The notes under the pieces were generated by a model. That model saw only the letters and a program-made list of their open reading frames with translations. It was not told where the DNA came from and ran no database searches. Below, piece by piece: positions 1 to 64,000 of a stretch of DNA of 64,000 bases; positions within the stretch are counted from its first letter, which is position 1; each line of letters opens with the position of its first letter. A program made the position numbers and the translations under genes. The stretch covers positions 419,285 to 483,284 of the forward strand of contig CAWCXU010000002.1 of the NCBI GenBank assembly GCA_963799625.1. Reading direction: 5' to 3'. Source of the stretch: an uncultured Actinomycetes bacterium. GTDB taxonomy: Bacteria; Actinomycetota; UBA4738; HRBIN12.

Positions 1-899
1 AACGATCCATTGAACACCTCGTCCTGGCCCAGCGACTGGGCGATCTCGGAAGGCGCATCGATCACGTGGGCCGGCACGGCCGCGAAGATCGCCATCACGA
101 TGGCGATGCCTGCGACCACGACGCCTGCTCTCGCGCGCCACGTTCGAACGAAGGACAGACCGAGCGCAACGGCGGCACCGCTTCCGAGGGCGAACAGGGC
201 CGTGTTCGACTTCGTGTCGACGATCGCGATCAACACGGGCACGAGCACGATGAACTTCGTGAGTCGCCGGCGCGGGACGGGCGACGCCCAGATGACGAAC
301 ACGGACAGGACGAGGTAGCTCCCGGCCATGTTCGGGTCACGGAAGGTGCCGTAGAACCGGTGGAACTGATCGACGATCTCATAGCCGAACACTCGCGGGG
401 GGTGCGCGCCGGACGATCCCGAGGCGAGGATCGCGAGCGCGCTCACGCCGAGCGCCGCGGCCGTCCAGGCGACCGCCGCCCAACGGAGCCCGCGATCGCC
501 GACGATCACGAGCGCGTTCAGCATCACGAGGAACCAGGCGAACAGATAGACGTCGGTCATCACGGCGACCAGCGCCACCGACGGGGCGATCGATTGGCCG
601 ACGGCAAGCAGCCCTCCACCGACGATCAGCAGGTTGCTCCACGCGAGAGGGATGTGGAAGGGCTGTCGCGCGCGGAGCAGACACGCCGTGCCCATCACCA
701 ACAGCAGCACGGCCGGGATGTCGGCTGGCACGCTGTTGTTCGGCCCACGTGGCACGAGGATCGGCAGGAACACCACGTTGAGCACCAGCAGCCAACGCAG
801 GATCGGCTCCATCGGACCGCTCCGGACCCGTCGGAGCTCGCGCGAGCCCTCTTCCGAGCCCTGCGGGATCCCCGCCCGATCGGCAACCGCTCGACTCAT
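1..899 (-). CDS. O-antigen ligase/Wzy-like polysaccharide polymerase family membrane protein, 3' end cut by the window edge
   Basis: Manual minus-strand translation gives a continuous multi-pass membrane protein (…LLVLNVVFLPIL…AWFLVMLNALVIVGDRGLRW…FYGTFRDPNMAGSYLVLSVFVIWASPV…IVDTKSNTALFALGSGAAVALG…) typical of the Wzy_C/O-antigen ligase family. Its ATG at 899-897 overlaps the TGA of the upstream GT (ATGA). The ORF track does not list it because it runs off the window edge. An alternative start is MEPILRW at 812. Confidence 0.6.
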   Translation of the reverse strand, partial: MSRAVADRAGIPQGSEEGSRELRRVRSGPMEPILRWLLVLNVVFLPILVPRGPNNSVPADIPAVLLLVMGTACLLRARQPFHIPLAWSNLLIVGGGLLAVGQSIAPSVALVAVMTDVYLFAWFLVMLNALVIVGDRGLRWAAVAWTAAALGVSALAILASGSSGAHPPRVFGYEIVDQFHRFYGTFRDPNMAGSYLVLSVFVIWASPVPRRRLTKFIVLVPVLIAIVDTKSNTALFALGSGAAVALGLSFVRTWRARAGVVVAGIAIVMAIFAAVPAHVIDAPSEIAQSLGQDEVFNGS

Positions 900-2065
900 G
901 CGTCCCCACGTCCCGTCGCTGCTCGCGCCAGACTTCCCGGTACATCTCGATCGACGCGTCCACCATATGCCCGGTGGAATACTCGGCCCCGACGAGATCG
1001 GCGATCGCCGTGCCGAGCGACTTCAGCTCCTGCTCGGAGCGTCAGGAGCTCGACCACCTGGTCCGCCAGGTCGTCGGGCCGGCCCCCGGCCCCGACGAGA
1101 CGCCCGGTCTCGCCGTCACGGACGACCTCCGAGACACCGCTCACGTCGGTCGAGACCACGGGGACCCCGGCCGCTCCCGCCTCGAGCACCGTCCGGGGCA
1201 GCCCCTCCCATGCGGAGGCGAGCACCAGGAGGTCCATCGCGGCGTACGCCGTCTCGATGTCGTTGCGGAATCCGACCACGTGGATCCGGGGCTCATCCTC
1301 CGTCGACGCGACCGCCTCCTCGAAGGACGGTCCGTCGCCCACCATCAGGAACGACGCTTCCGGCATCGTGCGCACCAACCGCCTTGCCACCTCGAGCACG
1401 ACCTCGGGTCGCTTCTGCGGGAAGTGTCTTCCCACCCAGCCCGCGACCGGTCCGTCGGTCGAGATGCCGAACGAACGCCGGGCTTCCTCGCGGGAGGGAA
1501 GGTTGCGGAACCGGTCGACGTCGATGCCGCTCGGGATGATCGCGATCTGCTCCGGACGCGCGAGGCGGAGCGCGACGAGCTCATCCGCGGTCGCGTGGCT
1601 CACCGCCACGATCCGGTCGCTCGCACGGGCGGCGCGTCGCTCCGCGGCGAGCAGTATCCCGCGCTCGGTGCCCGACATGTCCGGGTTCACCGGCAGGCCG
1701 TGACTCGTATGCACGATCACGGGAACCTTCGCCCGCCTGGCCGCGATCCGTCCGATCACGCCGGCCTTCGATGAATGCGTATGCACCACGTCGAACCCGC
1801 CGTCGCGGATCAGACGGCCCACTTCGCGGTAGGCGCGCGCATCGTCGGCCGGCGAGACCTGACGGACGAGATGCGGCAGGTGCACGAGCGGTACGTCGTC
1901 CGCCTCGAGCCGCTCTTGCATAGGGCCTCCGAGCTGTGAGCCCACCGTGACGTCGAAGCCACGACGACGCATCCCCCCGGCAAGTCCAACGACCGTCTCC
2001 TGGGCGCCGCCACGCTCGAGATGCGTGATCAGCAGCAGGATCTTCGGCCGTTCGGCTGTGCTCAT
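896..2065 (-). CDS. Group 1 glycosyltransferase (GT4 family)
   Basis: ORF 896..2173 with a likely true start MSTAERPKILLLITHLERGGAQE at 2065. Its ATG overlaps the stop of the upstream sulfotransferase (ATGA). The GT4 fold is supported by the C-terminal E…VPVVSTDVSGVSEVV motif region. Confidence 0.85.
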   Translation of the reverse strand: MSTAERPKILLLITHLERGGAQETVVGLAGGMRRRGFDVTVGSQLGGPMQERLEADDVPLVHLPHLVRQVSPADDARAYREVGRLIRDGGFDVVHTHSSKAGVIGRIAARRAKVPVIVHTSHGLPVNPDMSGTERGILLAAERRAARASDRIVAVSHATADELVALRLARPEQIAIIPSGIDVDRFRNLPSREEARRSFGISTDGPVAGWVGRHFPQKRPEVVLEVARRLVRTMPEASFLMVGDGPSFEEAVASTEDEPRIHVVGFRNDIETAYAAMDLLVLASAWEGLPRTVLEAGAAGVPVVSTDVSGVSEVVRDGETGRLVGAGGRPDDLADQVVELLTLRAGAEVARHGDRRSRRGRVFHRAYGGRVDRDVPGSLARAATGRGDA

Positions 2066-3016
2066 GCCGTCACCCCGTCCTGCTGCATCAGCCGGTAGTG
2101 GTATCGCAGCAAGAGAGGCCATGTGAGGGCCGTCACGAGCCGCCGGTCCCCGAGTCCGAGTTTCGTTATCCACTCGACGTCCGGACGGATGGTGAGTGGC
2201 CCCGACTCGAACCGGATCGGGTTGCCGGACACCGTGTGGCTCGAAGTGGGCGGCGACGTCTTCCCCGACACGACGTCGGCGACCGAGGCGGCCGCCTCGT
2301 CCGGCAGGAGCGCCGTGAGCATACCGACCGGATCACAGACGAGATCCTCGTACCGGATGCGATCGTACCGATCAACCTTGCGGCGGACCGCTTCCATCGC
2401 GACGTTCATCGACGACCAATCGAAGCAACTCCGCCACGGCGAGAAGAGCGACATGTCTTGCTCTTGCCAGTGGATCTCGGGGCGAGCCTTCTTCCGCTGC
2501 CACGAATATGCCACGGCGCGGCTATCCCGCACGAGGTGGATCGCGTGGACGCTGACCCTCGGCAACCGGGTGAGCAAGGCGCAATCCGTTGCGTACTTGG
2601 ACGAGTCGACGATCACCTGTCCACCCGTCACACGATCCACCGAGTGCAGGACGCGCTGCAAGGCGTCCAGGTACTCGTGCCGCTGCCTCCGCGTATCGGC
2701 CGACTCCAGGCCGACCCCCGATCTGAGCACCGGCATGGGGCGGGCCACGTCTCGCCATTGGGAGAGGTAGTGCTCCGGATCGAGCTCGTCGATCGGACCC
2801 AGAGCGCCCTTCATGACGTCTCGCCAGAAGGGGCACGAGCGGAAGGGCCTGCCGCAACCACATAGCTGGTTCCCCTGCAGCCCTCGCAACCATAGGTATC
2901 GCAACTCACCCGCAGCGAAATACCCAGGCAACGCGCCCAGCAACAATGAGAGGAGCGTGCTGCCAGTGCGGCTCGCTCCCCCGATGAAGATCGACCTTGG
3001 TGTCGGTTGGGGACAT
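2062..3016 (-). CDS. Sulfotransferase family protein with an apparent +1 frameshift at codon 3
   Basis: ORF 2062..2946 (TTG start in the track) carries the 3'-PB-like region (VIVDSSKY…HLVRDSRAVAYSW) but lacks the PAPS 5'-PSB motif. Extending the same frame upstream gives …PRSIFIGGASRTGSTLLSLLLGALPGY… (the 5'-PSB motif) with no in-frame canonical start. An ATG at 3016-3014 lies one frame off (ATGTCCCCAACC). Removing one C from the CCCC run yields MSQPTPRSIFIGGASRTGSTLL…. Confidence 0.7.
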
Positions 3017-3269
3017 AGGTGCCTATCCGTGGGTCTTGGGGAGACGATACAATCACCCTCCGGTCCTACGCTAGGGTCCGTACGCCCTACCCGGGAAGGG
3101 ATAACGAGATGGTCGAAGTCGCTCGCCCACTCAACAAGTGAGAACAGAAACTTGAAGGCCTAGTTTGGGCCTCCGAGCAGCAGTACCAGTACGAGGCTAC
3201 CCGTTGGGTGGTGCGTTCAACCGAGCCCGGATTCGTCGATCTCGTCGATAGCCTATCTCCACGATCACC

Positions 3270-4071
3270 GTGCCGGCGGGGAGCTCGGAGAAGCCGTCGA
3301 TGCTATCGGCCGACTGCGGCGCGGCGAAGAGCCTGCCCGGCCACATGAAGGTCGAGTCCAAGCTGACGCTCTACTTCGGCACAACCGCGATCTACCGAGG
3401 GTTCTCCCAGCTCGAGATGGCCGGGCGATTGATCCGATTCATGCGGAGCAACGGTTGGCGCTTCAGGAACGACTTCATCCGACTCGACGGCGGCTCCGTC
3501 GTCGTGGACGGCGGCGCGGTGCTGCTCCTGGGAGGCGGCGATCATCGTGTGGCCGCCATAGCTGCCAGGCTGGTCGCGGGCGGCGCCTCGCTGCTCGGGG
3601 ATGACATTACGGTCTGGGAGCCGGTTGACCGGCTGCTGCACCCGCTCGGGATGCCGATCGCGTTGGACGCCGATCTGGCTCACGAGGCCTTCCCTGAGAG
3701 CGTGCCACCCCCCGGCCGGCGTGTTCGAGTCAGGAACGATCGGGCCGCCGTTCCACGCATCTGGCCAGTACCTCTTCGCCCAGAGGAACTCGGAGGAGAC
3801 CAGGCGACGGGAGCCTGCGGCGATCCGGCACGTCTTCGTGGTTGACATGGTCGACGACGCTCCCACCACACTCGAGACGCTCAGTCTCTCTGAGGCGGTC
3901 TTCGCCGCATCCGCGTCCGTGCGCAACATCGAGATCTGGGGCGAGCGAGCCATGATCGCGTTCCGCGAGCTGTACCAGCACGTCCCGTTCTCGAGGCTCG
4001 TGACGAGCTCCATGGACGAGGCAGCTGACGCTGTGCGGCATTCGCTCCCGCACATGGATGGTGTCGCGTGA
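3270..4071 (+). CDS. HprK-related kinase paralog with a degenerate Walker A, carrying an apparent frameshift near 3700-3730
   Basis: Frame-0 ORF 3270..3845 reads …SVVVDGGAVLLLGGGDHRVAAIAARLVAGGASLLGDDITVWEP…PLGMPIALDAD…, an HprK C-terminal kinase-domain-like layout with a degenerate P-loop. The coherent continuation lies in frame 1 (ORF 3601..4071: …LFAQRNSEETRRREPAAIRHVFVVDMVDD…RELYQHVPFSRL…). Its TGA overlaps the GTG of the next gene (GTGA). Confidence 0.55.
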
Positions 4072-4966
4072 CGCAGATCGGGGAAGAGATCCCCTTGCAG
4101 GTTCGGGAATCGGAGAACCCGGTCGTCGACCCCTACCGCGTCATGTCGCTGCCTGCGACGCTGCGACATGGCGACAACCGGCTGCTCGAGGCTCTCAGAT
4201 GGCACCTCCGGCCGTTCGAGATCGCCCATCGCGAGCGCGAGTCGTATGAACTGGAAATCATGGAGACGAGGAAGGAGACGGCCGGACTACCCATGGCGAC
4301 TCACCTACCTCCGAGGCACGGTCCCCATGGTCTCGGGGTCCCCCTGCCGCCGTACTCGACTACGCCCTGTGGGACATCCATTCTCTCGTGTACCAGCACT
4401 GCATGGACTTCCTATTCCTGCATGCCGGCGCGGTCGCCGGCGGCGGGCGCCGAGTGATCCTGCCCGCCGCGCCGGAAACAGGGAAGTCGACGTTGGTGGC
4501 ATCGCTGCTCCGCCTAGGGTGCGAGTACCTCTCCGACGAGCTAGCGCCGATCGACCCTGTGACGGCGGGCGTCTATCCGTTTCCCAAGCACATCGCCGTC
4601 GCCAGATCCGGTTTGGAGTACATCACCGGCGGACCTCCAGAACTCCCGGACGACTACCCTCCCCTAACCGCGCAGCTCTCCAACCGATACCTCCGGCCGG
4701 GCGACCTGAAAGCCGTAGTCGCCGGCTCGGGATCGGTCGACATGATCGTGTTCCCGACGGATGATCGGGAAGGGACTCCCACACTTCAGGCCCTCTCCTC
4801 CTCGGAAACGATCGCGCGCCTCCTCGAACACACGCTCAACGCGGAGCTGTACGGGGACCGGACCTTGACGATGCTGACCAGAGCGTCCAGGGCTGCAGAG
4901 TCGTTCGAACTTACAGGAGGCTCCTCAGAGCAGCGAGCCGAACTCTTGCGCCAGGAACTCTTCTGA
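4068..4966 (+). CDS. HprK-related kinase with an intact Walker A (GKST), carrying an apparent frameshift near 4300-4340
   Basis: Frame-2 part …PPAAVLDYALWDIHSLVYQHCMDFLFLHAGAVAGGGRRVILPAAPETGKSTLVASLLRLGCEYLSDELAPIDP… has the HprK C-domain P-loop GxxGxGKST followed by G..LSDE. The N-terminal 80 aa (MTQIGEEIPLQVRESENPVVDPY…) are in frame 0 (ORF 4068..4457). The frame switch falls in a GGGG/CCCCC run. Confidence 0.65.
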
Positions 4967-4969
4967 AAC

Positions 4970-5009
4970 GCGCAAGGCCCCCCGGTTGGGAGGGCCCTGC
5001 GTAAACTAA
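4970..5009. terminator. GC-rich hairpin between convergent genes, a putative intrinsic terminator without a T-tract
   Basis: cgcaaggccc-(12-nt loop)-gggccctgcg gives a 10-bp stem with one mismatch. It lies immediately after the HprK-related gene stop and at the 3' end of the convergent minus-strand small gene. Confidence 0.4.
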
Positions 5010-5393: not shown

Positions 5394-5620
5394 GTGTTCT
5401 CCACCTGAACCCCCTCCTTCTCTTGTCTGGAGCCCAGGCTAGGGACCCGGCTCGGCCGCCGAATCGCCGTGCTGACGTATCTTCCGTGACGGCCCCGGGC
5501 GGAGCGGCACTCCTCAAACCCGCTGGTCAGGGGCACCGGACGGCGCCCAACTACGACGAACAGCGTACGTCGCGCCTCGCACCCTTCCTGCGGGATGCCC
5601 GCCTGGGATACGCTCCCACG

Positions 5621-6840
5621 ATGCCCCCCAGCTTCGTGCACCGCGCCCTGATCGACGCCGCGCGTGATGAGCTGGATCCATCTCGGGTCGAGGGGGCCAC
5701 CGAGGCCGAGCGTCACGAGCTCCTCATCCGGAGCCGGGACCATGCGGTGCAGGGGCTGGTCGCCCGTTCGGTCCGCCGGGCCGGGGACCTCGAACCCTGG
5801 GCGCTCCCGTTCGTCCAGGACGCGATCGGGATCCGAGAGTCGCATGCACAGCACGTCCGGACGCTCCGGACCGCCTCGTTCGCCCTCGAACGAGCACGAG
5901 GTGCCGGGGCTCCTCATGAAGGGCGCGTCGCTGGTCGATCGCTACTACCACGACGACTCCCTCCGGGCGTACGGCGACGTCGACATGCTCGTTCCCTCCC
6001 AACGGTTCGCCGACGCGTTGTCGATCCTGGAGGAGGCCGGGTTCTCGATCCTCGACCGCAACTGGCACATGCTCCGTGCGGGATATGCGAGGCCAGCTCC
6101 ACCTGCGCTCCCCCGACGGTCACGACATGCTGGAGCTGCACTGGCATCCGATCAATCCGAGCCGGGTCCGCCACACCCTTTCGGTGACCGCGAACGACCT
6201 TTGGTCCGGCGCGTCGCGAACCCGAGTCGCGGGGCGGACGTGTGGGTGCCGCACACGTCCCGCGAGCTGGCCCACCTCTGCCTGCACGCCGCGCTGCACG
6301 GTTGTGACCGCCTGATCTGGCTGGTCGACATCCACAAGGTCATGGACTCCCCCGATCTCGACCTGGACGACCTGCAACGCACCGCACGTCACTGGGGGTT
6401 CGGCGCGGGGACCTATCTCGTGCTCGCCTTGGTCGATCGGTGGCTCGGGCTCTCGCAGCCCCTACGGGATCTCTCGCAGGCTCCACCCGGGCCGCGCCAC
6501 CCTCGCCGCGTTCCACCGGCTGGTCGACCGGTGGGACCTCGGCCGGCCCGCTCGCGACGCGCGGTTCCGGCAGCTGCTCTTCGCGACCGCGGCCGACGGC
6601 GTGGGGCGCCGCGCCAGGCTGACCTGGTCACTCGTGGTGCCGCCGGACGTCAGCGATCCGGATGCGGGCAGGGAGCCACTCGGCCCGCTGCTTTCCAGGA
6701 TGACGATCGGCGCGGCGACCAGGGTCCGGCACAAGCTCGACGAGCATGCCGAGGACGATGCGGCACCCGAATTCCTTCGGCGAGGGGACCCTGCCGTCGG
6801 ACGCGTCCGGTATCTGGCGCGCGTCGCATCCGAACGATAA
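5621..6840 (+). pseudogene. Nucleotidyltransferase family protein (PF14907-like, uncharacterised NTase), disrupted by four or more frame switches
   Basis: Family-typical segments fall in different frames. MPPSFVHRALIDAARDELDPSRVEG…LRTASFALERARGAG is in frame 2. …LLMKGASLVDRYYHDDSLRAYGDVDMLVPSQRFADALSILEEAGFSILDRNWHML is in frame 0. GQLHLRSPDGHDMLELHWHPINPSRVRHTLSVTANDLWSGASRTRVAG is in frame 1. ADVWVPHTSRELAHLCLHAALHGCDRLIWLVDIHKV…LGLSQPLRDL is in frame 0. …ATLAAFHRLVDRWDLGRPARDARFRQLLFATAADG…RVRYLARVASER* is in frame 1. The switches sit in G/C runs (for example ggtgccggggctcc and gcggggcggacg). Confidence 0.7.
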
Positions 6841-6862
6841 GGCATCAGGTCACCGTGATCTG

Positions 6863-11384: not shown

Positions 11385-13353
<1,969 letters not shown>

Positions 13354-13509: not shown

Positions 13510-13938
13510 ATGCAGCAACCGCCGCCACCTCCCCCGGCACCGGCGGCACCGCCCACGCGGCGCGGCCTCCCGAAGGGTCTCAAGCTCCTGTTCGTCCTCC
13601 TGGCCGTGTTCTTCGTGCTGACGGGGGTCATCGCGTACGCGAACCGGTGGTTCATCTCGTACGTGACCTCGACCAGCCCGCACGCGATCACCTATGAGGT
13701 CACGGGGAGCGGGACGGCGCAGGTGGCCTACGGGACGCCCGAGGGCACGACGACGGACACGGTCTCGCTCCCCTGGGAGGTGACCCTGACGGTTCCCGAC
13801 GGGTCGATGCTGTCGATCGCGGCGACCGGGACCAGCGGCGGGTTCCTCACCTGCCGGATCAAGTGGGAGGGACACACGATCGGGCTCGACACCGAGTCCG
13901 CGAACCAGCCGGCGTGTCAGAAGTCGGCGACGGCCTAG
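13510..13938 (+). CDS. MmpS-family small membrane protein (single N-terminal TM, Pro-rich N-terminus)
   Basis: [15 protein letters not shown]…[21 protein letters not shown]…[20 protein letters not shown]…[10 protein letters not shown]…[28 protein letters not shown] shows the MmpS-like layout with the two conserved Cys. Confidence 0.7.
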
Positions 13939-15104
13939 CCGGCTTTGGCCGGCGGTCCAGGCTCCGCAAGGGCCGGCAGCGGCTCCGCGCGCACCCAGGC
14001 GATCCGGTCGGGGATGCTCCCGTGGGTCGCGAACAGCAGCCGCGCGACCCGGCTCGGGTCGAGGTCGGCGAGGTTGGACACGGCGAGACGCCGCAAGAGC
14101 AACGCGAACCCCACCGGGTCCCGCGTGAGCCGGACGCCGAACAGGTCCGCGGCGCGCTCCTGGCTGCGGATGTACCCGACGACGATCGGTCGCAGGGCGA
14201 TCCCGAAGGCCCCCCACACCAGCAACAGGAGCGGCACATAGGTCGGATCAGGAGCGACGAAGGGCACCCGTGTGACGAGCCCGCCGAAGAACGCCACGGG
14301 CACCCCGTCGTATAGCAAGGCCCCGGGGAGGCGATCGACGAGCGTCACCGTCGCGACGAACACGACCGCGGCCACGGCGAGGAACACGCCGAGCCGCTTG
14401 ACCGTGTGGTGCAGCCGCATGTGCCCGAGCTCGTGGGCGACGGCGGCGTCCAGACAGATCGGACCCTCGGCCGCGAGCGTGTCGAACACGACGAGCCGCC
14501 GCGTCGGCCACACCCCGACCACGAACGCGTTCTGCCGGCGCGTGCCCTGCATGACCTTGCGGACGCGGACACCGTCGAGCTGGACGCGGGATCGGCGGAT
14601 CAGGCTCCGGAGTCGTGCGGCCGTCGGCGGATCGTCGACCTTGTGCGCGGACGCAGCGACGAGCAACGGCGCGACGAGGACGGCGACGGGGAGCCACACG
14701 AGCGTCCCGACCATCTGGCCGTACCCGAACAGCACCACGTCCCAGATCTGCTGCATCCAGGCCGGTCCCGCGAGGATCAGCAGCAACCCCCACACGAGCG
14801 ACCGCACCGGCAACTGATGCCAGCCCTGCGACAGGCCCTGCGCTCGCTCGTCGCGCGCGCCGGCGAACGCGACCGGGATCGTGAGCGCCCAGCCGATCGC
14901 GAGGCTCACGGCCGCGATGTCCCACACCGACCCGGTGCCCGAGCCCGAGGTCGACATGGATCGCGACAGACCGGACACGTACACACCCACGAACGCCGCC
15001 GCATAGAGCGCCTGGCGCCAGACGAAGCGTCGATACCGGCGACGCGCGAACGCGGCGGCCCGCGCGCGCTCGCGTTCGGTGAACTCGCCGACCGCGTCGG
15101 CCAT
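13935..15104 (-). CDS. M48-family zinc metallopeptidase (HtpX/Ste24-like) membrane protein
   Basis: [29 protein letters not shown]… has multiple TM segments. [10 protein letters not shown] provides the HExxH zinc motif, and a downstream [10 protein letters not shown] glutamate motif follows. The 881-aa track ORF 13935..16580 fuses this gene in frame to the TPR tail of the upstream decayed regulator. Confidence 0.75.
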
Positions 15105-18100
15105 CAACCGGTCGAGGCGAGCGCGTCGACCTCGGGCAGGTACAGGCGGGCGCCGCACGCCTCCAGGAGCGACCGCGCACGCTCGAGCGAGGGCGCGGGA
15201 TCCAGGCCCGCGCGCCGCTCGGCACGAGCGAGCTCGATGACGAACGCGCGCCTGCTGCACGCGGATCCCGAGTCGCTCGAGCGTGTCCGCCGCCCCTCGC
15301 AGGTCGTCGACGGCCATAGAGGCGTCCGGCTCGAGGAGGCCACGTCCGACCGAGACGACCGCGCGGATCGCGGGTGACGTCCCCCGCGCGTCAAGCCGTT
15401 CCCAGATCTCGGCCGCCTCCTCGCGCCCACCGCTCCTCGAGAGGGCGATGAACAGGTCGAGGAACAGCCATTGATCGGCGTTGACGCCGGACCCTGCGAA
15501 CGCAGGCTCTATCCCACGACGCATGTGGCGGATCGCTTCGTCCGTATCGCCGCGCGCCGAGGCGATCATCGCGTGGATCCGTTCGCCTCGTGCGACGCCT
15601 TGTGCCTCTGTTCGCTCCCGAAGGATCGCATCTGATGACGCGAGTTGCGCCTCTCCATCCTCGATCCGGCCTTGCTCGAGCACGCAGCGCGCGAGGTCTT
15701 GATGGGTGAATCCCATCAGGGGCCCGTCACCGACCTCGCTGGCGGCAGCCAACGCCTCCGCCAGCGTCTCCTCCGCCACCGAGAGCTCGCCCCGCTCGGT
15801 CCGGATCACGCCGGTGTTCTCCAGCTGCCATCCGACGAAGCCGGTGGCGCCCGCCCGTCTGGAGACCTCGAGACCCTCGGTCGCGATCTCGAGCGCGCGC
15901 GGCAAGTTGCTCGCGTCCGTGGTGAGGGTCGACGCGAAGTTCGTGTAGATCCGCAGCAGGTTCACCTGATCGTCGACCTGCTTCGCGAGGACGAATGCAT
16001 CCTCCATCATCGCCAGGCCCTCATCGGTCGCACCGATCTGGGAGAGCTGGACCGCCAGCGTGTGCGTCGCCCCCGCGAGCACCTCCGGTGCGTCGACCCG
16101 GCGTGCCATCTCGACGGCACGCCGCAGGACTTCGGTCGCGTCTTCCCCTCGTCGCCAGTGCAGCCAACCGGTGCGATGCAGGGCTTCGGCGAGTTCGGCG
16201 GACTCGCCGAGCGGCTCGAGCAACGCGAGCGCGGCGTCCGCTTCAGCCTCGGCGGCTCCCTCGTCGCCGAGCTGGAGCTCGATCAAGATCATCAGCGCGT
16301 GCGCGGCGCCTGCGCCACGATCGTCGCCGATCTCGGTCGACAAGGCGATCGCGCGTCGCCCGGCTACCGCCGCCCGCTCGTTCGGGATGGTCCCCCACCC
16401 GGCGTCGAGCACGGCTCGGGCAACCGCGGCGCGCTCTGCGGCGGTCGCGTCCGTGCGCTCGCTCAGGCGGAGCGCGTGCTCGTACCAGTACGCGCCCTCG
16501 GCGCGGAGCCACAGAGCGAGCGCGCGATCCCCGGCCGCCCGCGCCCATCGGTAGGCCTGCCGCAGGAGGCGCGGGTCCACCGCCGCGCCGAGCTCGTCGA
16601 GGTACGAGATCGCCTCGCGCAGGTGCGTGGCGAGCAGCTCCGCGATCTCGTCCGCGCGGTCGCCGGCCCGCTGCTCCGCCCACCGGGCGACCTCCTCGTG
16701 CTTCGTCGCCCGCGGTCGACTTCGGCAGCGAGTCGTAGGCGCCGTCGCGGATCAGCGCGTGGCGGAACACGAGCTCGGCCTCGCCCGAGAAGCTCGAGGG
16801 CTCGTTGCGGCAGGACGAGCTCCTTCACGCGGAGGCGGCCGAGCGCCTCGCGCACCGTCGCCGGCATCACAGCCCGTCGAGCGTCGCCACCGCGCCGGCC
16901 CAGAAGACCCGGCCGACCACGGCGGCGTCCTGCAGGAACTCCTTCTCGTCGCTCGGCAGCGCGTCGAGCCGCGCCGCGATCAGCGCCGTGGATCGAACGA
17001 GGGACCTCGACGTCGGTGACCGGCTGTGCGATCTCCCACCGCGTCGCCCTCGGCCGCGCGCAGCACCCCGTCGTCGATCAGCTTGCGGACGATCTCCTCG
17101 ACGTACAGCGGATTGCCCTCGCTGCGGTCGGCGATCACGCCGCGCGAGCTCGGCGCCGACCTCGGCCGAGAGCAGATCGCGCGAGCATCGCGGCGCTCTC
17201 GTCGGCCGACAATGGATCGAGGTAGATCGCCGCGGCGTTGCGCTTCCCGCCGCCCCAGGACGGGCGCGCGTCGAACAGCTCGGGCCGCGCGAGCGCCACG
17301 ATCATGGATCGGGCCCTGCGACCAGTCCGCGAGGTGGTCGATGAAGTCCAGCAGGCCGGCGTCGGCCCAGTGGATGTCCTCGAACAGGAGCACGAGCGGG
17401 TAGCGCGCGGCCATCCGCTCGAGGAACCGGCGCCACGCGTCGAAGAGCTCCTCCCGCGCAGAACGACCCCGCGTCGCCCGCGCCGACCAGCGCGCGCGAT
17501 CTGCGGCACCACGCTCGTCGTCGCCGAACAGCTCGACGACGGCCTTCTCGACCTTCTGTCGCCGCGACGTCGGTCGGATCGTCCTCGAGGATCTCGCACT
17601 GGGCCTTGATCGCATCGGCGAGCGCCGAGTACGCGGCGTTGGCGTAGGCGAGGCAGCGGCCGCGGCGCCAGTAGACGAACTCCGGCAGCGCCTCCACGTA
17701 GCGCCTCGAGCTCGCGCGACGAGCCGGGACTTCCCCACTCCGGCGGGGCCGATCACGGTGACGAGCGCCGGCCGGCCCTCGCCCTGGACGCGCTGGAACG
17801 TCTGCGTGAGCACGGCGAGCTCCTCGTCGCGACCGACGAGCGCCGCCTGCATCCCGAGCTGCGGGCGTTCGCCGCGCTGCTGGGCGCTGGATCGCGGAGC
17901 ACCTGCCAGGCGGGCACCGGGCTCGGCCTTGCCCTTCGAGGTCGAGCGGCCGGCAGCTCGCGGTACTCGATCACGTCCTTGGTCGCGGCGTAGACGCCGC
18001 GGGCCGACGATCGACGCGGCCGGGCTCGGCGGCGCCCTGCAGGCGTGCGGCCGACGTTCACCGCATCGCCGGTGAGCATCCGGTCGCGCGGGCCGCTCAC

Positions 18101-18558: not shown

Positions 18559-18595
18559 GCGGGACAGGGTATCGGCGCGCTGCTCGGGCGCGGGC

Positions 18596-21476: not shown

Positions 21477-21479
21477 GGT

Positions 21480-21993: not shown

Positions 21994-22010
21994 GCCGCCC
22001 AGCGTAGAGC

Positions 22011-23419: not shown

Positions 23420-23425
23420 CCGCCT

Positions 23426-24832: not shown

Positions 24833-24838
24833 ACGGGC

Positions 24839-37495: not shown

Positions 37496-37500
37496 CGCTG

Positions 37501-38246: not shown

Positions 38247-38259
38247 TGCCTCGCACTGA

Positions 38260-39490: not shown

Positions 39491-39603
39491 CGAGACATGT
39501 CAATGCTCTGGATCGACGCGCGGCTGCACCTGAGCGGCGCGCTTCAAGGTCGGCTCCGGGGACCCGAGGATTACTCGGGGGACGACGACCCACGGGAGCC
39601 ACG

Positions 39604-49601: not shown

Positions 49602-50733
49602 ATGCGGCTTGGGAGAGGGTTCGCGGTCATCGTGCTTGCCGTGCTTGCACTCTCGATGACCCCGGTGGTGGCGAGCGCCCAGACCACCCCGGATCCGACC
49701 CCCACGACCGACCCGAGCGCGACCCCGACGCCCACGCCGGACCCCACGACCACCCCGTCGCCCACCGACGACCCCACGCCGAGCGACTCCCCCACCTCGG
49801 ACCCCTCCCCGACGGGCGACCCGAGCCCCTCCTCCGATCCGGGCCAGCGCCAGCATCCCGGCGGGCTCCTGTCTGTGGCAGCCCCCGGCCTGGGCGGACG
49901 GATCGGGGCCGACGCGCGCAAGGGGCCGCGCAGCCGTGGCGGCCGTGACGGCGCCTGGGCGCCGAACCCCAAGTGGGGCGCCTACTCCACGCAGCGCCTG
50001 GTCGTCGCGGAGCGCAGGCTGGAGCGCCACGGCATGCCGGAGCGCAAGGCGCTGGACGCGGCGTTCGCGCCGTTCCCGGTCGGCGGCTTGGCCGTCTGGA
50101 GCGACACCTGGGGCGCGCCCCGCTACGCCGGCGGCTACCACCCGCACCACGGACAGGACCTGTTGTGCGCCGAGGGGACGCCGCTGCTCGCGGTCCAGCC
50201 CGGGGTCGTCGAGTTCGGCAGCGACCCGCTCGGGGGCACGACGATCGAGCTGACCCTCCGCGACGGGTCGTTCTGGTACTACGCGCACCTCGACCATTAC
50301 GCGAAGGGCCTCACCGACGGCGAGCACGTCTCGACCGGTCAGGTGATCGGGGCGTGCGGCCAGAGCGGCGACGCGACCGTGCCGCACCTGCACTTCTCGT
50401 ACTTCACCGCGAGCGGCGACGCGCGGAACCCGATGCACGCGCTGCTCGGCTGGCTCCACCGGCGCCGAGCATCGCGCCGGGGTGCGGCCGTCGAACGGTC
50501 ACGGCGTGCCGACGCCGCCGATGGCCGAGCTCGCGACGCCGTCGGTGATGCATCCGCGGCCCGAGACCACCACCACCGGCGTCGTGTGGGCGCCGGCGAC
50601 CTACGTCGTGGCGCCGGGCGGCGGGTTCGACGCGACGGCGTACGCGGCGGCCGCGCTGTTGCTCGCGCCCATCGCGCTGCTCGCGGCGAGCAGGCGGGCG
50701 CGGTCCTGGGTGATCGCCCGGGTCGCCGCCTGA
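49602..50733 (+). CDS. Secreted M23-family metallopeptidase with a Pro/Thr/Asp-rich linker; a C-terminal frameshift is possible near 50470
   Basis: Signal peptide MRLGRGFAVIVLAVLALSMTPVVASA, then a PT-rich low-complexity linker. The M23 core is …YHPHHGQDLLCAEGTPLLAV…GACGQSGDATVPHLHFSYF…. A coherent hydrophobic C-terminal tail (…GGGFDATAYAAAALLLAPIALLAASRRARS…) lies in ORF 50482..50733, in another frame. Confidence 0.75.
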
Positions 50734-50746
50734 GACCGCTCGGGGC

Positions 50747-53700
50747 TCAGCTTCGCTTGACGACGCCCTTGACGGCGTCGACCTTCGACGAGTCGTGGCC
50801 CGACGTGACCTTCACGAGCGAAGACCACGAGGCAGTGCCGGTGGACTTCACGGCAACCTTCATCGTGATCGACTTGTACTGACCGGGACTGAGCGTGAAC
50901 GAGTAGTTCCCGGCGATGACCTTCGTCGTGTAGTTCGCCGCACCCACCATGTACGAAACGGTGTAGCCCTTCGCCGAGCCGCCACCGTTGACGGTGTAGG
51001 TGTCGGCGTCGGTACCGTCGTTCTCGATCTTCAGGGCGAACGAGACGGTCGAGCCGGCCTTGGTCTTGACGGTCTTCGTCTGGTTCTGGCCGGTCGAGTT
51101 GTAGATCCCGTTGCCGACGTACTTCCCGCCGTAGCCGATCCAAGCGTCGGGCTTGTGGTCGGCGAGGTCGATCGACCAGACCCGCGTCGTGTCCGCGCTG
51201 ATGTTGCCGAGCGCATCGATCCCTCGCACGTAGAAGGTGTGCTGTCCGGCCAAGAGCCCCGAGTAGTTCACGGGCGACGTGCACGGGGCGTAGGCGGTGC
51301 CATCGAGGTGGCACTGGAACGTAGCGCCGCTGTCCGGCGAGTCGAACGAGAACGATGCGTTGGTCACGTGGACGAACCCGCTCGGTCCCGAGTTGATGTG
51401 GACCACGGGAGGCGTCGTGTCGACGGTCCACGAGAAGGTCGCCGGGGCGGTGCTCTGGTTCCCTGCGGGGTCGGTCGCCCACACGGAGAAGGTGTGGTCG
51501 CCGTTCGTCACCGTCTGCGAGTAGCTCGACCCGCACGCGCTCGCGACGGCGGCGTCGATCTGGCAGACGAACGTCGAGCCTTGCTCGGACGAGTGGTACG
51601 TGAACTGTGCGTTCGTGTTGGCGGTCGGCGAGTTGGGTGTGTTGTCGATCCCGACCGTGGGCGGCGTCACGTCGACGGTCCAGTCGTACGTGGCCGGGTT
51701 CCCAACGTTGCTCAAGGAGTCGGAGGCTCGGACGGTGAACGTGTGGGCCCCTTCTGCCAATGAGTTGACGGCGCACCCCGGACGAACACGCCGCGATAGG
51801 GGTTGGAGTCAAGCTTGCACTCGAAGGTCGATCCCGGCTCGTTCGCGTGGAAGTTGAAGGTCGCGCTCGTGCTCGACGAGATGGACCCCGGTCCCCCGGC
51901 GTCGAACAGCGTGTCCGGTCCGTTCGCGTCGAGGAACACCTGGACCCGGTTGTTCAAGGTATCGGCGACCAGGATGCGGCCGTTCGGGGAGACCGCGATG
52001 CCCTGCGGTGACTCGAACTCGTTGACGGCGAGTCCGGCGACGCCGAGCTTCGACAGGTAGGTGCCCCCGCTCGTCAGCCGCTGGATCCGGTCGTTCGTGT
52101 ACTCGACCACCCACATCGTTCCCTCAGCGTCGAAGTCGAGGTCGCGCGGCGAGGCGAACTTGCCGTCGAGGCTGCTCGAGCCGGTCCCGGCGATCTTGCT
52201 CAGCCACGTCCCGTTCGGGTCGAACTCCTGGATCCGGTTGTTGCCGGTATCCGCGACCCAGACGTTCCCGGATCCGATCGATCGCGATCCCCCGGGGCAG
52301 CTTGAACTCACCGTTGCCGCTCGTCGGCCCGGAGCCCCACGCCGTGATGAACGCGCCACCGGATCCGAACTTCTGGATCCGGTTGTTGTTCGTGTCCGCG
52401 ACGAAGACGTTGCCCGAGGCGTCGACGGCGATCCCCGCGGGGCTGTCGAACATCGCGACCGAGGTGCCGAAGCTCCCCCATTGCGTGACGAAGCTCCCTG
52501 TGGGCGTGAACTCCTGGATGCGCTGGTTCCCCGTGTCGGCGACGTAGATGTTGCCGTTCGTGGGCGACACGGCGATCGCGGCCGGGTTCTGCAACTGACC
52601 CGCCGTGCTGCCCGTTCCGCCCCATTGCTGGAGGAACGTGCCGTCGGCCGCGAACTTCTGGATCACGTCGTCGGACTTGTTCGTCACGTACACGTTGTTG
52701 GACGCGTCGACCGCGACCCCGATCGGCGAGTCCTCGACACCCGGAGACGGGTATTCCCCCCACGCGGCATCCAGTGTCACCGCGGTCGAGTACCGCACGA
52801 TCCGGTCGTTCCCGGTGTCGGCCACGAAGAGCTTGTTGTTCGCGAAGGTGACCCCGACCGGCGCGGACAGCTGCCCCGAGCCGAGCGTCATCAGGAGCGT
52901 GCCGCCGATCGTGTACTCGCGCACCACGCCCGAGGATGAGGACACCCACACGTTCCCCGGATCCGTCGATCGCGATCCCGGTCGCCCCCGCCGATGCCCA
53001 CGAGGGGCCGGCGACGCCGTCGGTGGTGTAGGTCTTCACGTTGCTCCCATCCGTGGCCCAGACGGTGCCGCTGTTCACGAGCACGTCGCGAACGCCGGTC
53101 GCGGGCCAGGACAGGTCGAGCGTGCCGTCGGTCAGGTAGCGCACGATCCGGTCGTTGCCGGTGTCGGCGACGAAGAGCTTGCCTCCTCCGAACGACACGC
53201 CGCGCGGCGAGGAGAGCTGTGTCGCCCCGACCGTCGTGAGGAGGTTGTTGGACCCGTCGTACTCACGCACCACACCGTCGGCCATCGACGAGACCCAGAG
53301 GTTCCCGGATCCGTCGGGCGTCACCCCGCGCGCGCCGTTCGACGCCCACGAGGTGCCGGCCGCGCCGCCGGTGCTGTAGGTGGCCACCGTCGAGGCGCCG
53401 CGAGCGGCGACGATCGATCCGCCGCTGGTCGTCAGTCCCGTGACGCCGGTCGCCGCCCACGACGTCTCCTTCGAGGGTGTTCCGTACCGCACGACCCGGC
53501 CATCGCCCGTGTCGGCCACGTACAGCGTGCCGTCGCTCTGCATCGCCAGCCCCTGCGGCGAGGTGAGCTGGCCCGATCCGAGCGTCTCGAGAAGGGTGCC
53601 GGTTGTGTCGTACCGGCGCACGAGGCCCGAAGAAGCGGAGACCCAGAGGTCGCCTGTGGGTCCGGCCGCGAGGCTGTACGCGTTGGTAGGACCCGAACGA

Positions 53701-54389
53701 GCCGAGCAGCCCCCCCGAGGTGTTGTACGACTTGACCGTGTTCGCCGTCGACCCCGACCCACGACCGTGTCCGACCCGTCCACGGCGACACCCGTCGGGT
53801 TGTTCACCGCCCAGGAGTTCAGCCAGACACCGTTGGACGCGAACTTCTGGATCCGGTCGTTCACGTTGTCGGCGACGTACACGTTGCCGACCGAGTCGAT
53901 CGCGATGTCCAGCGGGTTCTTGAACTGCCCGTTCCCGATCCCGTACGCGCCCCAGCTGCCGAGGAAGGCGCCGCCGCTGTCGTAGTAGGAGATCTCGTTC
54001 GCCAGTGACGACGCGGCCCCGTTCTCCACGACGTAGATGTTGCCGTTGGGTGCGATCGTGATCGAGGTCGGGTTGACGATGTCGCCGGGGTTGCTCCCGT
54101 ACCCCGCGAGGACGTCGAGGAAGATCCCGTTCGGGTCGTATTTCACGATCCGGTCGTTCGATGACGTGCCTCCGAGGTCGGTGACGTAGACGTCGCCGGC
54201 GCCGTCGACCGCGACGTCCACGGGCGCGTCGTGCCGTGGCAGCCCGACCATGTGCGAGAAGGTCAAAGGCAGGCTCGCGTGCGCGGGCAGCGCGCCGAAG
54301 CCCGTCACGACGGTCGCGCCCACCACGACCAGCGCGAGCGCAGCTCGACGAGCGTGCCGGAACAGGCCGAGGGGGGTTGCTCGAGTCAC
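50747..54389 (-). pseudogene. Giant secreted NHL-repeat/bacterial-Ig-like domain protein (about 1200 aa), disrupted by four or more frame switches
   Basis: Signal peptide MTRATPLGLFRHARRAALALVVVGATVVTGFGALPAHA (ORF 52308..54389). Many NHL repeats follow (YVADNVNDRIQKF, YVADTGDGRVVRY, FVADTGNDRIVRY, YVADTGNQRIQEF, FVADTNNNRIQKF, WVADTGNNRIQEF, ILVADTLNNRVQVF). They are spread over ORFs 52308.., 52124.., 51712.. in different frames. C-terminal Ig-like repeats (…FTYHSSEQGSTFVCQIDAA… / …FSFDSPDSGATFQCHLDG…) are in ORF 50747..51760. Confidence 0.7.
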
Positions 54390-58798: not shown

Positions 58799-58817
58799 CG
58801 GGTGCGCCCCTTGCCCG

Positions 58818-62917: not shown

Positions 62918-62943
62918 GTCCTATCCCTTGGTCTATCCGGCGC

Positions 62944-63516
62944 TCAGCTCGCCGCGGCCTCGCCCCGCACGAGCGGGAACCCGAGGGCCAGCAGCAGCGC
63001 GCGGCCGTCGTCGTCGGTGCGGGCGGTCGTCACGATCGTGATGTCCATCCCACGCACCTTCAGCACCTTGTCGTAGTCGATCTCCGGGAAGATCAGTTGC
63101 TCGGTCAGCCCGAACGTGTAGTTGCCGCGCCCGTCGAACGAGCGCGGGTCCAGCCCGCGGAAGTCACGGATCCGGGGGATCGCGATCGAGACGAGCCGGT
63201 CGAAGAACTCCCACATCCGGTCGCCCCGCAGCGTGACCTTGACCCCGATCGCGTTGCCCTCGCGGAGCTTGAACCCCGCGATCGACTTGCGCGCCTTCGT
63301 GATCACGGGCTTCTGGCCGGTGATGGTCGTGAGGTCCTCCACCGCCGCATCCAGCATACGGCCGTCCTTGAGGGCGTCACCGACCCCCATGTTGACGACG
63401 ATCTTGTCCAGGCGCGGCACCTGCATCACGTTGGTCAGGCCGAGCTGGTCGCGCAGGGCCGGCACGAGCTCCTCGCGGTACCGGGTCTTCATCCGGGGCA
63501 CGTAGGTGTCAGCCAC
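62944..63516 (-). CDS. rplE: 50S ribosomal protein L5
   Basis: …[38 protein letters not shown]… matches L5. Confidence 0.95.
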
Positions 63517-63853
63517 CCGTCAGCACCGCCTCGCACTTGCGGCAGATCCGCACCTTGCCGTCCTCGGTCGTCTGGTGGCCCACCCGCGTGAGCTGGTGGC
63601 AGTTCGGGCACACGAGCTGCACGTTCGAGATGTTCACGAACGTCTCGATGTCGATGATCCCGCCCTGGTTCAGCTGCTGGCCGGTGCGCGTGCGCTTGGC
63701 GCCCGTGCGGGTGTGGCGCTTGGCCATGCCCACGCCGTCGACCATCACGCGTCCCTCCTCGGGGAGCACGCGGAGCACGCGGCCCTCCTTGCCCCGATCC
63801 TTGCCCGAGATCACCCGGACCAGGTCGTCACGTTTGATGTCCACGGTCGGCAT
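63509..63853 (-). CDS. rplX: 50S ribosomal protein L24 with a C-terminal Cys4 (CxxC…CxxC) segment
   Basis: The KOW region is …[32 protein letters not shown]… The C-terminus reads …[30 protein letters not shown]. Confidence 0.93.
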
Positions 63854-64000
63854 CTACAACACCTCCGGGGCGAGCGAGATGATCTTCATGAAGCGCTTCT
63901 CGCGCAGCTCGCGCGCGACCGGCCCGAAGATGCGGGTGCCGCGCGGGTTCTTCGCATCGGTCGTGAGGATCACCACGGCGTTGTCGTCGAACCGGATGTA
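63854..64000 (-). CDS. rplN: 50S ribosomal protein L14, 5' end outside the window
   Basis: Manual translation gives …[25 protein letters not shown] with a stop at 63854-63856, 2 nt beyond the rplX start. Confidence 0.85.

What the first reader, a model, noticed from the sequence alone, without database searches (positions are those of the whole stretch)
1..64000. Frame disruptions are numerous but confined to accessory genes, suggesting real gene decay rather than random sequencing error
On my reading at least 25 frame switches occur, shown by conserved motifs of one protein family distributed over two to four frames in the ORF track. The affected genes are the sulfotransferase start, both HprK-related genes, the Cys-rich gene, the NTase (4+), the cyclase/AAA/TPR regulator (5+), nitroreductase, DUF1345, DUF4337, the DAO oxidoreductase, the serine hydrolase, arsM (2), the pyridine-disulfide oxidoreductase, the M23 peptidase and the NHL giant (4+). 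The same window holds about 30 kb of intact core and long genes with no such break (groEL, glmS, glmM, secY, nnr-alr, tsaD, rpoA, all ribosomal proteins, the BY-kinase, the GT and the MFS transporter). The switches I located at nucleotide level fall in G/C homopolymer runs. A uniform error process would not spare about 30 kb of essential genes. Two explanations remain: genuine pseudogenisation of accessory functions, as in a niche-restricted or host-associated lineage, or strongly context-biased assembly error.
Basis: partly seen in the sequence, partly recalled or inferred. Interest (0 to 1): 0.65.

Follow-up and report, generated by a model that had tools for sequence, protein, structure and literature searches.

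The report
False pseudogenes from long-read assembly errors
The many broken reading frames in this soil actinobacterial contig are real in the sequence, but they are consensus errors of a strain-mixed long-read metagenome assembly, not decaying genes, so the finding is an artefact.

Summary
They are heavily concentrated in accessory genes.

They are not gene decay:
- Sister assemblies of the same population (98-99.4% identical, ENA ERZ25039xxx) carry intact copies where the window is broken. Examples are the 1189-aa NHL protein and the 465-aa NTase.
- Those sisters carry their own private breaks elsewhere, including 140 frameshifts in housekeeping genes such as groEL, tsaD, alr, nnr, glmS, rplF and adk.
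- In the worst gene, the cyclase/AAA/TPR regulator, the window has 31 private insertions, 0 deletions and 41 private substitutions. Genuine divergence at the same locus gives 6 indels per 571 substitutions.
- After frame correction that gene has no stop codon and is 94% identical to an intact 1140-aa orthologue. Its private substitutions are mostly synonymous.

Only 2 of 54 window-specific sites lie in homopolymer runs. Many insertions are instead "allele merges": a site polymorphic between strains (G or C) is written as both bases (GC). This explains the insertion bias, the bias towards variable accessory DNA, and recurrence across assemblies.

Core genes are not fully spared. The "nnr-alr" fusion is itself such a merge, at position 31699.

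The parts
15107..18600 (-). Zn-ribbon / class-3 cyclase / AAA_16 / TPR regulator (about 1140 aa). It carries 31 window-private insertions, 30 of them between 16713 and 18613.
   Evidence: Frameshift-aware alignment to the intact orthologue P0001 gave 31 frameshifts, 0 stops and 94.4% aa identity. The three-way alignment with 561 and L028 polarises all 31 as window insertions.
13935..15110 (-). M48 peptidase, in the same strain-variable island (14015-18608) as the regulator. It is fused to the regulator's reading frame in the window ORF 13935-16580.
   Evidence: Pfam Peptidase_M48. An intact 391-aa copy lies next to the intact regulator in L028. The island is absent from sisters 464, 555 and 568b.
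50750..54389 (-). NHL-repeat giant protein. It has 7 extra-nucleotide sites at 51773, 51795, 52277, 52957, 53688, 53751-54 and 53762.
   Evidence: The intact 1189-aa copy in 568a and the 1129-aa copy in 561 are 99.7% identical after frame correction.
5541..6860 (+). NTP_transf_5 nucleotidyltransferase. Window-private indels lie at 5541, 5889, 6076, 6233 and 6477.
   Evidence: Sisters 464 and 561 agree against the window at all five sites. An intact 465-aa ORF is present in 464. The Pfam domain is spread over 5 frames.
22006..23416 (+). DUF1345 protein and an adjacent 214-aa membrane protein, with about 10 frame breaks. Several are doublets of two alleles (22293, 23015, 23107, 23125), and four are shared with assembly 568b.
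   Evidence: Intact 217-aa and 214-aa ORFs are present in 464.
20703..22005 (-). Methyltransf_11 (extra base at 20909, shared with 555) and nitroreductase (extra base at 21950).
23420..26320 (-). DAO oxidoreductase (extra base at about 23482, which scrambles the C-terminus) and serine hydrolase/beta-lactamase (extra G at 26076, shared with 464).
   Evidence: 468-470-aa DAO ORFs are present in 561 and 464.
36140..39508 (-). Strain-variable ars island (ArsR, ArsM, MIP channel, Pyr_redox_2 oxidoreductase) with about 6-8 window frame breaks. The same island is worse in 561 (25 private indels) and 569 (35).
   Evidence: The island is absent from 556, 567 and 568c.
2062..5000 (.). Sulfotransferase start (extra base at about 2991) and two unknown EPS-cluster genes (about 3806 and 4702), compared with the single sister 561.
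   Evidence: Polarity is not resolved because only one sister covers this stretch.
31690..31705 (-). nnr|alr junction. The window reads GCC-G-A-TGACC where the sisters read either GCC-GTGACC or GCC-ATGACC. The extra base fuses two housekeeping genes into the 929-aa ORF.
29465..29480 (-). tsaE|tsaB junction. An extra C fuses the two genes. It is present in the window, 555, 556, 561 and 568c, and absent in 464, 567, 569 and 574b.
49602..50882 (+). M23 peptidase. The catalytic domain is intact. The C-terminal tail differs between assemblies at 50461 and 50742.

Best explanation
The frame disruptions are consensus errors in a long-read metagenome assembly of a mixed population of closely related strains of a soil Actinomycetota species. 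They are not mutations in a living genome.

The best-supported error mode is an 'allele merge'. Where co-occurring strains differ by a single base (for example G versus C), the consensus writes both bases (GC). This produces a 1-bp insertion and a frameshift.

Such sites exist only where strains differ. They pile up in strain-variable accessory genes and islands and are nearly absent from conserved housekeeping genes. This mimics selective decay of accessory functions. Residual low-coverage long-read errors probably add to the count in strain-specific islands.

Shown: the breaks are assembly-specific, have a non-biological spectrum, and often sit at known polymorphic sites. Inferred: the sequencing and assembly platform (probably Nanopore with metaFlye and Medaka) and the read-level cause.
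For: (1) Thirteen sister contigs from ENA assemblies ERZ25039464 to ERZ25039578 are 95-99.4% identical to the window. Where three or more sequences allow polarisation, the window has 21 private indels and the sisters 250. The rate is 0.26-7.3 per kb, insertions outnumber deletions about 3:1, and nearly all are 1 bp.

(2) Intact copies exist where the window is broken:
- NHL, 1189 aa, 99.7% identical
- NTase, 465 aa
- DUF1345, 217 aa
- the 214-aa membrane protein
- DAO, 468-470 aa
- the regulator, 1140 aa, with its M48 neighbour, in the same synteny in GCA_047520405.1

(3) The three-way alignment over 13050-20030 gives:
- window: 31 insertions, 0 deletions, 41 substitutions
- 561: 5 indels, 38 substitutions
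- the truly diverged L028: 6 indels, 571 substitutions

(4) The corrected regulator has 0 stops in 1139 codons. Its 94.4% identity to the intact orthologue matches that of sister 561 (95.0%), which has only 6 frameshifts. Of the window-private substitutions, 25 of 39 are at codon position 3, and 24 are synonymous against 15 non-synonymous.

(5) Using window proteins as guides, housekeeping genes in the sisters carry 140 frameshifts. 43 of 162 gene-by-assembly comparisons are broken, including groEL, tsaD (7 of 8 sisters), alr, nnr, glmS, rplF, rplR, adk and map.

(6) Allele-merge signature:
- In 24 of 185 polarisable insertions, both single-base deletions of the doublet are seen as alleles in other assemblies.
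- The shift control gave 35 observed against 4-7 expected.
- Further cases lie at 31699 and 22293.
- 17 of 28 regulator insertions decompose into the reference allele plus a synonymous alternative, against 29 +/- 9% for random insertions, P = 0.0005.

(7) Affected segments are strain-variable. The islands 14015-18608 and 36140-39508 and the NHL gene are present in some sisters and absent in others.

(8) The closest GTDB genomes are Microflora Danica long-read MAGs. That project used Nanopore-only metaFlye assembly with one Medaka round (PMC12313526). Flye collapses strains about 98.7% identical into one consensus (PMC8302730).
Against: - No reads were available, so miscalling is inferred from cross-assembly comparison, not seen directly.
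- The window's own contig is not in the indexed collections, so its platform and assembler are not documented.
- Attributing the sister ERZ assemblies to the Microflora Danica long-read project rests on Flye-style contig names, megabase contigs and related MAGs. No accession look-up confirmed it.
- The allele-merge signature is directly visible in only about 13% of polarisable insertions.
- Within polarisable bins, window-private indel density correlates only weakly with sister-sister polymorphism (rho = 0.19, not significant). The NHL gene has few SNPs among the sisters.
- Some breaks are shared by independent assemblies (26076 with 464, 20909 with 555, four sites with 568b, 29474 in 5 of 9) and could be real alleles.
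Confidence: 0.9

Rival explanations
1. Genuine pseudogenisation. The window's strain has really lost its accessory functions through accumulated frameshifts, as in a niche-restricted or host-associated lineage.
For: The breaks are concentrated in non-essential genes, while about 30 kb of housekeeping genes read through. Several breaks are shared with another assembly.
Against: - The regulator has 31 insertions and no deletions. The window's indel:substitution ratio is 0.76, against 0.01 for real divergence at the same locus.
- No in-frame stops occur in any corrected gene.
- Private substitutions are mostly synonymous.
- Intact copies at 99.7% identity exist in sisters.
- Sisters show the same lesions in essential genes.
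- Every assembly breaks the ars island and the regulator at different sites.
- Established knowledge: bacterial mutational spectra are deletion-biased. Here the bias is strongly towards insertions.
Confidence: 0.03
2. Ordinary low-coverage long-read noise. The errors are random residual indels wherever local depth is low (strain-specific islands carried by a minority of cells), with no special role for polymorphic sites.
For: - The densest clusters lie in islands absent from several sisters.
- Sisters with high overall error (555, 569, 574b) are broken everywhere, including in core genes.
- 86 of 158 sister insertions and 21 of 27 window insertions show no second allele among the sampled assemblies.
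Against: - The inserted base matches a neighbouring SNP allele 5-9 times more often than in shifted controls.
- The synonymous-decomposition test is significant, P = 0.0005.
- Identical insertions recur in independent assemblies, for example four sites shared by the window and 568b, and the +C in tsaD shared by 464, 555 and 556. Random noise would not do this.
- The first 2.7 kb of the regulator island is almost clean in the window, although it belongs to the same island.
Confidence: 0.25
3. A minority of the breaks are real segregating alleles in the population. Examples are the tsaE-tsaB fusion (extra C at 29474), the beta-lactamase frameshift at 26076 and the M23 tail variants.
For: - The 29474 state splits 5:4 among nine assemblies.
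- 26076 is shared by the window and 464.
- The 50461 state is shared by the window, 561 and 568a.
- The junction fusions leave both domains in frame and would be tolerated.
Against: - Recurrence is also expected from allele merging or other systematic error.
- Three assemblies share a +C that breaks essential tsaD. This shows that sharing between assemblies does not make a break real.
- At 50461 the three 'other' assemblies each lack a different base.
- Related species have separate tsaE and tsaB genes.
Confidence: 0.2

Closest known systems
Frameshift artefacts ('false pseudogenes') in long-read, especially Nanopore-only, assemblies and MAGs
   Same: The lesions are single-base indels that split ORFs. 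They are specific to one assembly and absent from independent assemblies of the same organism. They are removed by frame-aware correction, and the underlying coding sequence is intact. The literature describes this as the main quality problem of such assemblies (PMC9262707; the proovframe preprint).
   Different: The classic description is of deletions and insertions in homopolymers. Here only about 4% of the sites are in runs of 4 or more bases, and insertions dominate about 3:1. A sizeable share sit at sites polymorphic between strains, which gives an accessory-gene bias that looks biological.
Collapsed-strain consensus in metaFlye-type assemblies, and haplotype-mixing errors of polishers at heterozygous sites
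   Same: Closely related strains are collapsed into one contig (PMC8302730). Consensus calling at sites where reads disagree yields a sequence that no strain has. The doublets seen here, with both alleles written side by side, are of this kind.
   Different: I did not find the specific SNP-to-doublet insertion described in the papers I read. Its generality and the responsible software step are not established here.
Reductive genome decay with pseudogene accumulation (for example Mycobacterium leprae, recent host-restricted symbionts)
   Same: Many disrupted accessory genes lie next to intact housekeeping genes.
   Different: Real decay shows a deletion bias, nonsense mutations, relaxed dN/dS, and lesions that reproduce across independent sequencing. 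All four were tested here and not met.

Membership tests
Genuine bacterial pseudogenes / reductive decay | The inactivating lesions are reproducible in independent sequence of the same lineage. | tested here: not met
   Window-private at 21 polarised sites plus 31 in the regulator. Sisters at 99-99.7% identity carry the unbroken state.
Genuine bacterial pseudogenes / reductive decay | Relaxed selection: in-frame stops and non-synonymous changes accumulate together with the frameshifts. | tested here: not met
   0 stops in all corrected genes. Window-private substitutions in the regulator are 64% at codon position 3, with 24 synonymous against 15 non-synonymous.
Genuine bacterial pseudogenes / reductive decay | An indel spectrum and indel:substitution ratio typical of bacterial evolution (few indels per substitution, deletion bias). 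| tested here: not met
   The window has 31 insertions, 0 deletions and 41 substitutions. The diverged orthologous contig L028 has 6 indels per 571 substitutions.
Genuine bacterial pseudogenes / reductive decay | Confined to dispensable genes. | tested here: inconclusive
   This is largely true in the window. However, the nnr|alr and tsaE|tsaB junctions carry extra bases, and the sisters are broken in essential genes.
Long-read assembly consensus artefacts | Breaks differ between independent assemblies of the same population. | tested here: met
   There are 250 sister-private and 21 window-private indels. The regulator has 31 (window) against 6 (561) frameshifts at different sites. The ars island has 8, 25 and 35 private indels in three assemblies.
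Long-read assembly consensus artefacts | Essential genes are also hit. | tested here: met
   140 frameshifts in 43 of 162 housekeeping gene-by-assembly comparisons, including groEL, tsaD, alr, glmS, rplF and adk.
Long-read assembly consensus artefacts | Classic Nanopore signature: errors in homopolymer runs. | tested here: not met
   2 of 54 window-specific sites lie in runs of 4 or more, against a 4.9% background. 24% of 219 insertions extend a run.
Long-read assembly consensus artefacts | Raw reads do not support the consensus base. | not testable with these tools
   No read data. The only read-derived proxies are short Logan contigs, which cover clean regions only: 0 gaps over 19.3-20.8 kb and 32.1-34.7 kb.
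Strain-mixture 'allele merge' insertions | The inserted base plus its neighbour equals the two alleles of a SNP present in the population. | tested here: met
   24 of 185 events directly, plus 31699 and 22293. The shift control gave 35 against 4-7. The synonymous-decomposition test gave 61% against 29%, P = 0.0005.
Phase variation / programmed frameshifting | Slippage-prone repeat or homopolymer tract at the shift site, one site per gene. | tested here: not met
   The sites are not in runs. There are up to 31 sites per gene.

The most novel reading that the evidence does not exclude
Two readings are not excluded.

(a) A few of the breaks shared between independent assemblies are real segregating alleles of this soil population. 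These are the tsaE-tsaB fusion at 29474, the beta-lactamase frameshift at 26076 and the M23 tail variants.

(b) The SNP-to-doublet 'allele merge' is a general, under-recognised error mode of strain-collapsed long-read consensus. If so, it systematically manufactures false pseudogenes in accessory genes of Nanopore-only MAGs now entering public genome databases.
Probability: 0.3. Interest if true: 0.3.

Novelty: not a real feature. Interest (0 to 1): 0.08.

Why it matters
Biologically there is nothing new here. The organism is not losing its accessory genes, and no inference about host restriction or niche should be drawn.

The practical value is a warning. In strain-mixed long-read metagenome assemblies, consensus errors can concentrate in variable, accessory DNA and spare conserved core genes. 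That is exactly the pattern one would otherwise read as selective gene decay. Pseudogene fractions, gene fusions (the 'nnr-alr' ORF here) and pangenome presence/absence calls from such MAGs need read-level or cross-assembly checks.

Tried and rejected
- Exact-protein look-ups for the window's GlmS and S9 found nothing. A genome-contig scan with the MFS protein gave a best hit of 87%. The window's own contig is therefore not in the indexed collections, and its assembly method is undocumented.
- I tried to tie the ERZ/ERR accessions to the Microflora Danica long-read paper through its supplements. None are held.
- The PAS protein look-up returned only a contig I already had.
- The homopolymer explanation was tested and rejected.
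- Using 561's 526-aa 'ArsR-ArsM' ORF as a guide was misleading, because 561 is itself riddled with insertions there. It was replaced by a three-way alignment with 569.
- The divergent 575 NHL allele (65% identity) was too distant to test allele merging in that gene.
- The correlation of window-private indels with sister-sister SNP density was weak, so I do not claim that SNP density among the sampled sisters predicts the window's errors.
- Plain tblastn could not resolve the regulator because its frameshifts are too dense. I wrote a frameshift-aware dynamic-programming aligner instead.
- Pfam gave no support for the names 'HprK-related' or 'DUF4337'.

Full report
**What the window is**

The window is 64 kb of about 70% G+C DNA with no tRNA genes. 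It holds:
- an exopolysaccharide-type cluster
- groES/groEL
- a variable accessory stretch
- tsaEBD/rimI, alr, nnr, acpS, glmS and glmM
- the S10/spc/alpha ribosomal region with secY, adk and map

The closest species-level genomes are uncultured Actinomycetota MAGs, several of them Microflora Danica (MFD) long-read MAGs. The best MFS-protein identity is 87%.

**The observation**

A codon-usage frame HMM trained on the window's own long ORFs splits many same-strand stretches into short segments in alternating frames. There are 18 segments in 13.9-18.6 kb and 9 in 22.0-23.4 kb. Translating each segment in its own frame and joining the pieces gives stop-free proteins. These match full-length Pfam domains across the joins: NTP_transf_5 3-249/249, AAA_16, Pyr_redox_2 2-291/291, HTH_5 with methyltransferase (ArsR/ArsM), MIP, DUF1345 and nitroreductase.

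I then aligned intact guide proteins to the window DNA with a frameshift-aware aligner. The counts were:

| Gene | Frameshifts |
|---|---|
| cyclase/AAA/TPR regulator | 31 |
| NHL giant | 7 |
| 214-aa membrane protein | 7 |
| NTase | 5-6 |
| DUF1345 | 3 |
| sulfotransferase, two unknown EPS genes, Methyltransf_11, nitroreductase, DAO, beta-lactamase | 1 each |

The ars island adds roughly 6-8. None of TsaD, RimI, TsaB, UDG, Alr, Nnr, AcpS, GlmS or the ABC transporter genes has an internal frameshift.

**Sister assemblies**

The window's SecY, GroEL, GlmM, MFS and a 228-aa protein occur with identical sequence on contigs of a series of ENA metagenome assemblies (ERZ25039464, and 555 to 578) and on short Logan contigs. 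One 309-kb contig, labelled '561', is collinear with the whole window. These contigs are 95-99.4% identical to the window.

Their gene calls already show breaks in different genes from the window's. L4, L6, S19-L22, L29-S17 and adk are split or fused in one assembly or another. Meanwhile the NHL protein (1189 aa) and the M23 peptidase (385 aa) are whole in some of them.

**Polarised indels**

Wherever at least two sisters cover a site, I classified each indel:
- 250 are private to one sister
- 21 are cleanly private to the window
- 44 are shared or polymorphic

Every assembly has the same spectrum. Almost all indels are 1 bp, insertions outnumber deletions about 3:1, and the private indel:SNP ratio is 0.1-0.4. 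The window's rate (0.42 per kb) is typical of the better assemblies.

In the ribosomal region (54.5-64 kb, six sisters) the window is in the majority state at every coding site, while each sister has its own singletons. In the NHL gene the window alone has the extra bases.

**The decisive locus**

A database search with the corrected regulator found P0001, an intact 1140-aa orthologue. It is encoded on an NCBI metagenome contig (GCA_047520405.1) in the same synteny: MFS, LigB, regulator, M48 peptidase (391 aa, intact), membrane protein, GroES.

Against P0001:
- The window has 31 frameshifts (30 extra nucleotides, 1 missing), no stop, and 94.4% identity after correction.
- Sister 561 has 6 frameshifts at other positions and 95.0% identity.

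A three-way nucleotide alignment over 7 kb gives:

| Sequence | Insertions | Deletions | Private substitutions |
|---|---|---|---|
| window | 31 | 0 | 41 |
| 561 | 3 | 2 | 38 |
| L028 (truly diverged) | 2 | 4 | 571 |

Real evolution at this locus thus yields about 1 indel per 100 substitutions. The window's private changes are about 70-fold richer in indels, and all of them are insertions.

The window's private substitutions are real-looking strain differences. 25 of 39 are at codon position 3, with 24 synonymous against 15 non-synonymous. This means the gene was under purifying selection in the window's lineage, which is incompatible with a gene carrying 31 frameshifts.

**Essential genes in the sisters**

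Using the window's own intact housekeeping proteins as guides, the sisters carry 140 frameshifts. 43 of 162 gene-by-assembly comparisons are broken. Examples:
- groEL, 6 in 555
- tsaD, broken in 7 of 8 sisters
- rimI, tsaB, alr, nnr, glmS
- rplF, rplR, adk, map, infA

Three assemblies even share the same extra C in tsaD.

The hot segments differ by assembly. 555 has 82 private indels in 24-30 kb and 556 has 37 in 28-34 kb, and both are clean elsewhere. The error process is therefore strongly non-uniform, and a clean 30 kb is no argument for decay.

**Not homopolymers**

Only 2 of 54 window-specific sites touch a run of 4 or more bases, against a background of 4.9% of positions. Only 24% of 219 polarised insertions extend any run. 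C[G]C and G[C]G contexts are about 2.3-fold enriched.

**Mechanism**

Inspecting the DUF1345/214-aa region showed that the window's extra bases sit where sisters differ by a SNP, and that the window carries both alleles side by side. For example, the window reads CTC-GC-GCA where 464 has CTC-C-GCA and 561 has CTC-G-GCA.

Systematic tests:
- In 24 of 185 polarisable insertions, both one-base deletions of the doublet are observed as alleles in other assemblies.
- The inserted base is present as a neighbouring substitution allele in 35 events, against 4-7 in shifted controls.
- In the regulator, 17 of 28 insertions decompose into the reference allele plus a synonymous alternative, against 29 +/- 9% for random insertions, P = 0.0005.

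The same signature explains the 'nnr-alr' gene. Sisters read GCC-GTGACC or GCC-ATGACC (a GTG/ATG start-codon SNP of alr), and the window reads GCC-GATGACC. This removes the nnr stop and fuses the ORFs.

This mechanism accounts for:
- the insertion bias
- the non-homopolymer context
- the recurrence of identical errors in independent assemblies (four sites shared by the window and 568b)
- the concentration in DNA that varies between strains

The affected segments are indeed variable. The island 14015-18608 is missing from 464, 555 and 568b. The ars island 36140-39508 is missing from 556, 567 and 568c. The NHL gene is missing, truncated or highly divergent in 578, 556 and 575. In the ars island the three assemblies that have it are all broken at different places, with 8 (window), 25 (561) and 35 (569) private indels.

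**Limits**

- No reads were available.
- The window's own assembly is not documented.
- The Nanopore/metaFlye/Medaka attribution is an inference. It rests on Flye-style contig names, a 2.47-Mb contig, MFD relatives and the published pipeline. No accession match was found.
- The allele-merge signature is directly visible in only a minority of events.
- The window's indel density is only weakly related to polymorphism among the sampled sisters.
- Plain low-depth noise in strain-specific islands probably contributes.
- A few shared states (29474, 26076, 50461, 20909) could be real alleles.

**Verdict**

The sequence-level observation is largely right and stronger than stated. Its homopolymer detail and the 'no break in core genes' claim are wrong. 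The favoured interpretation, real decay of accessory genes, is refuted. The feature is an assembly artefact of a known general kind, with a specific and somewhat unusual error mode. It has little biological interest but is a useful caution.

Noticed in passing
window 31690-31705: The 929-aa 'nnr-alr' ORF is not a natural fusion. The sisters have overlapping separate genes (504 + 370 aa) with a GTG/ATG start-codon SNP, and the window carries both bases (G and A) in tandem. Sister 464 was also called as an 874-aa fusion, but its junction sequence was not fetched.
   Followed up: yes
window 29465-29480: An extra C fuses tsaE and tsaB into one 370-aa ORF in 5 of 9 assemblies, including the window. 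The other four assemblies and related species keep two genes. It could be a real fusion allele or a recurrent error.
   Followed up: partly
window 27920-27935: Sisters 464, 555 and 556 share the same extra C in tsaD (CTGGT[C]GGGC), which breaks an essential gene. The window, 561 and a short-read relative (L018) are intact. This is evidence for site-specific systematic error.
   Followed up: partly
window 14015-18608 and 36140-39508: There are two strain-variable islands. The first holds the regulator and an M48 peptidase, and is absent from 464, 555 and 568b. The second is an arsenic-type island (ArsR, ArsM, MIP channel, pyridine-nucleotide disulfide oxidoreductase), absent from 556, 567 and 568c. 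Sister 561 has an additional DUF1003 gene at the ars island border.
   Followed up: partly
window 42730-42740: At one spot in the epimerase gene, three assemblies have three different lengths (window GGC-GAG, 556 GC--GAG, 561 GGCAGAG). Only the window gives a full-length Epimerase domain (1-240/240).
   Followed up: partly
window 4279-5630: This 1.35-kb stretch inside the EPS cluster has lower G+C (about 0.65), no coding signal in the frame HMM and no Pfam hit for its ORFs. It differs from sister 561 at 16 indel sites of both signs. Sister 464 is only about 82% identical across 1.4-5 kb. Its content is unresolved.
   Followed up: no
window 50455-50470 and 50740-50745: The M23 peptidase C-terminal tail differs between assemblies. 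The window, 561 and 568a share one state. 556, 574 and 578 each lack a different single base at the same spot, giving 385-aa versus 376-aa products. The true sequence is undetermined.
   Followed up: partly
L029 5890-9996 (sister 567): A 1368-aa ORF fuses glmM, the antisense of the PAS gene, and glmS. This is another artefactual 'fusion protein' from frame errors in a high-GC genome where off-frame ORFs stay open.
   Followed up: no
L015 and L034-L037 (Logan contigs of runs ERR11630395, ERR11596060, ERR11630397, ERR11594407): Short contigs assembled directly from public runs match the window at 99.5-99.8% with zero gaps over 19.3-20.8 kb and 32.1-34.7 kb. They cover only clean regions. Similar contigs over the broken genes would be a quick read-level check.
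   Followed up: partly
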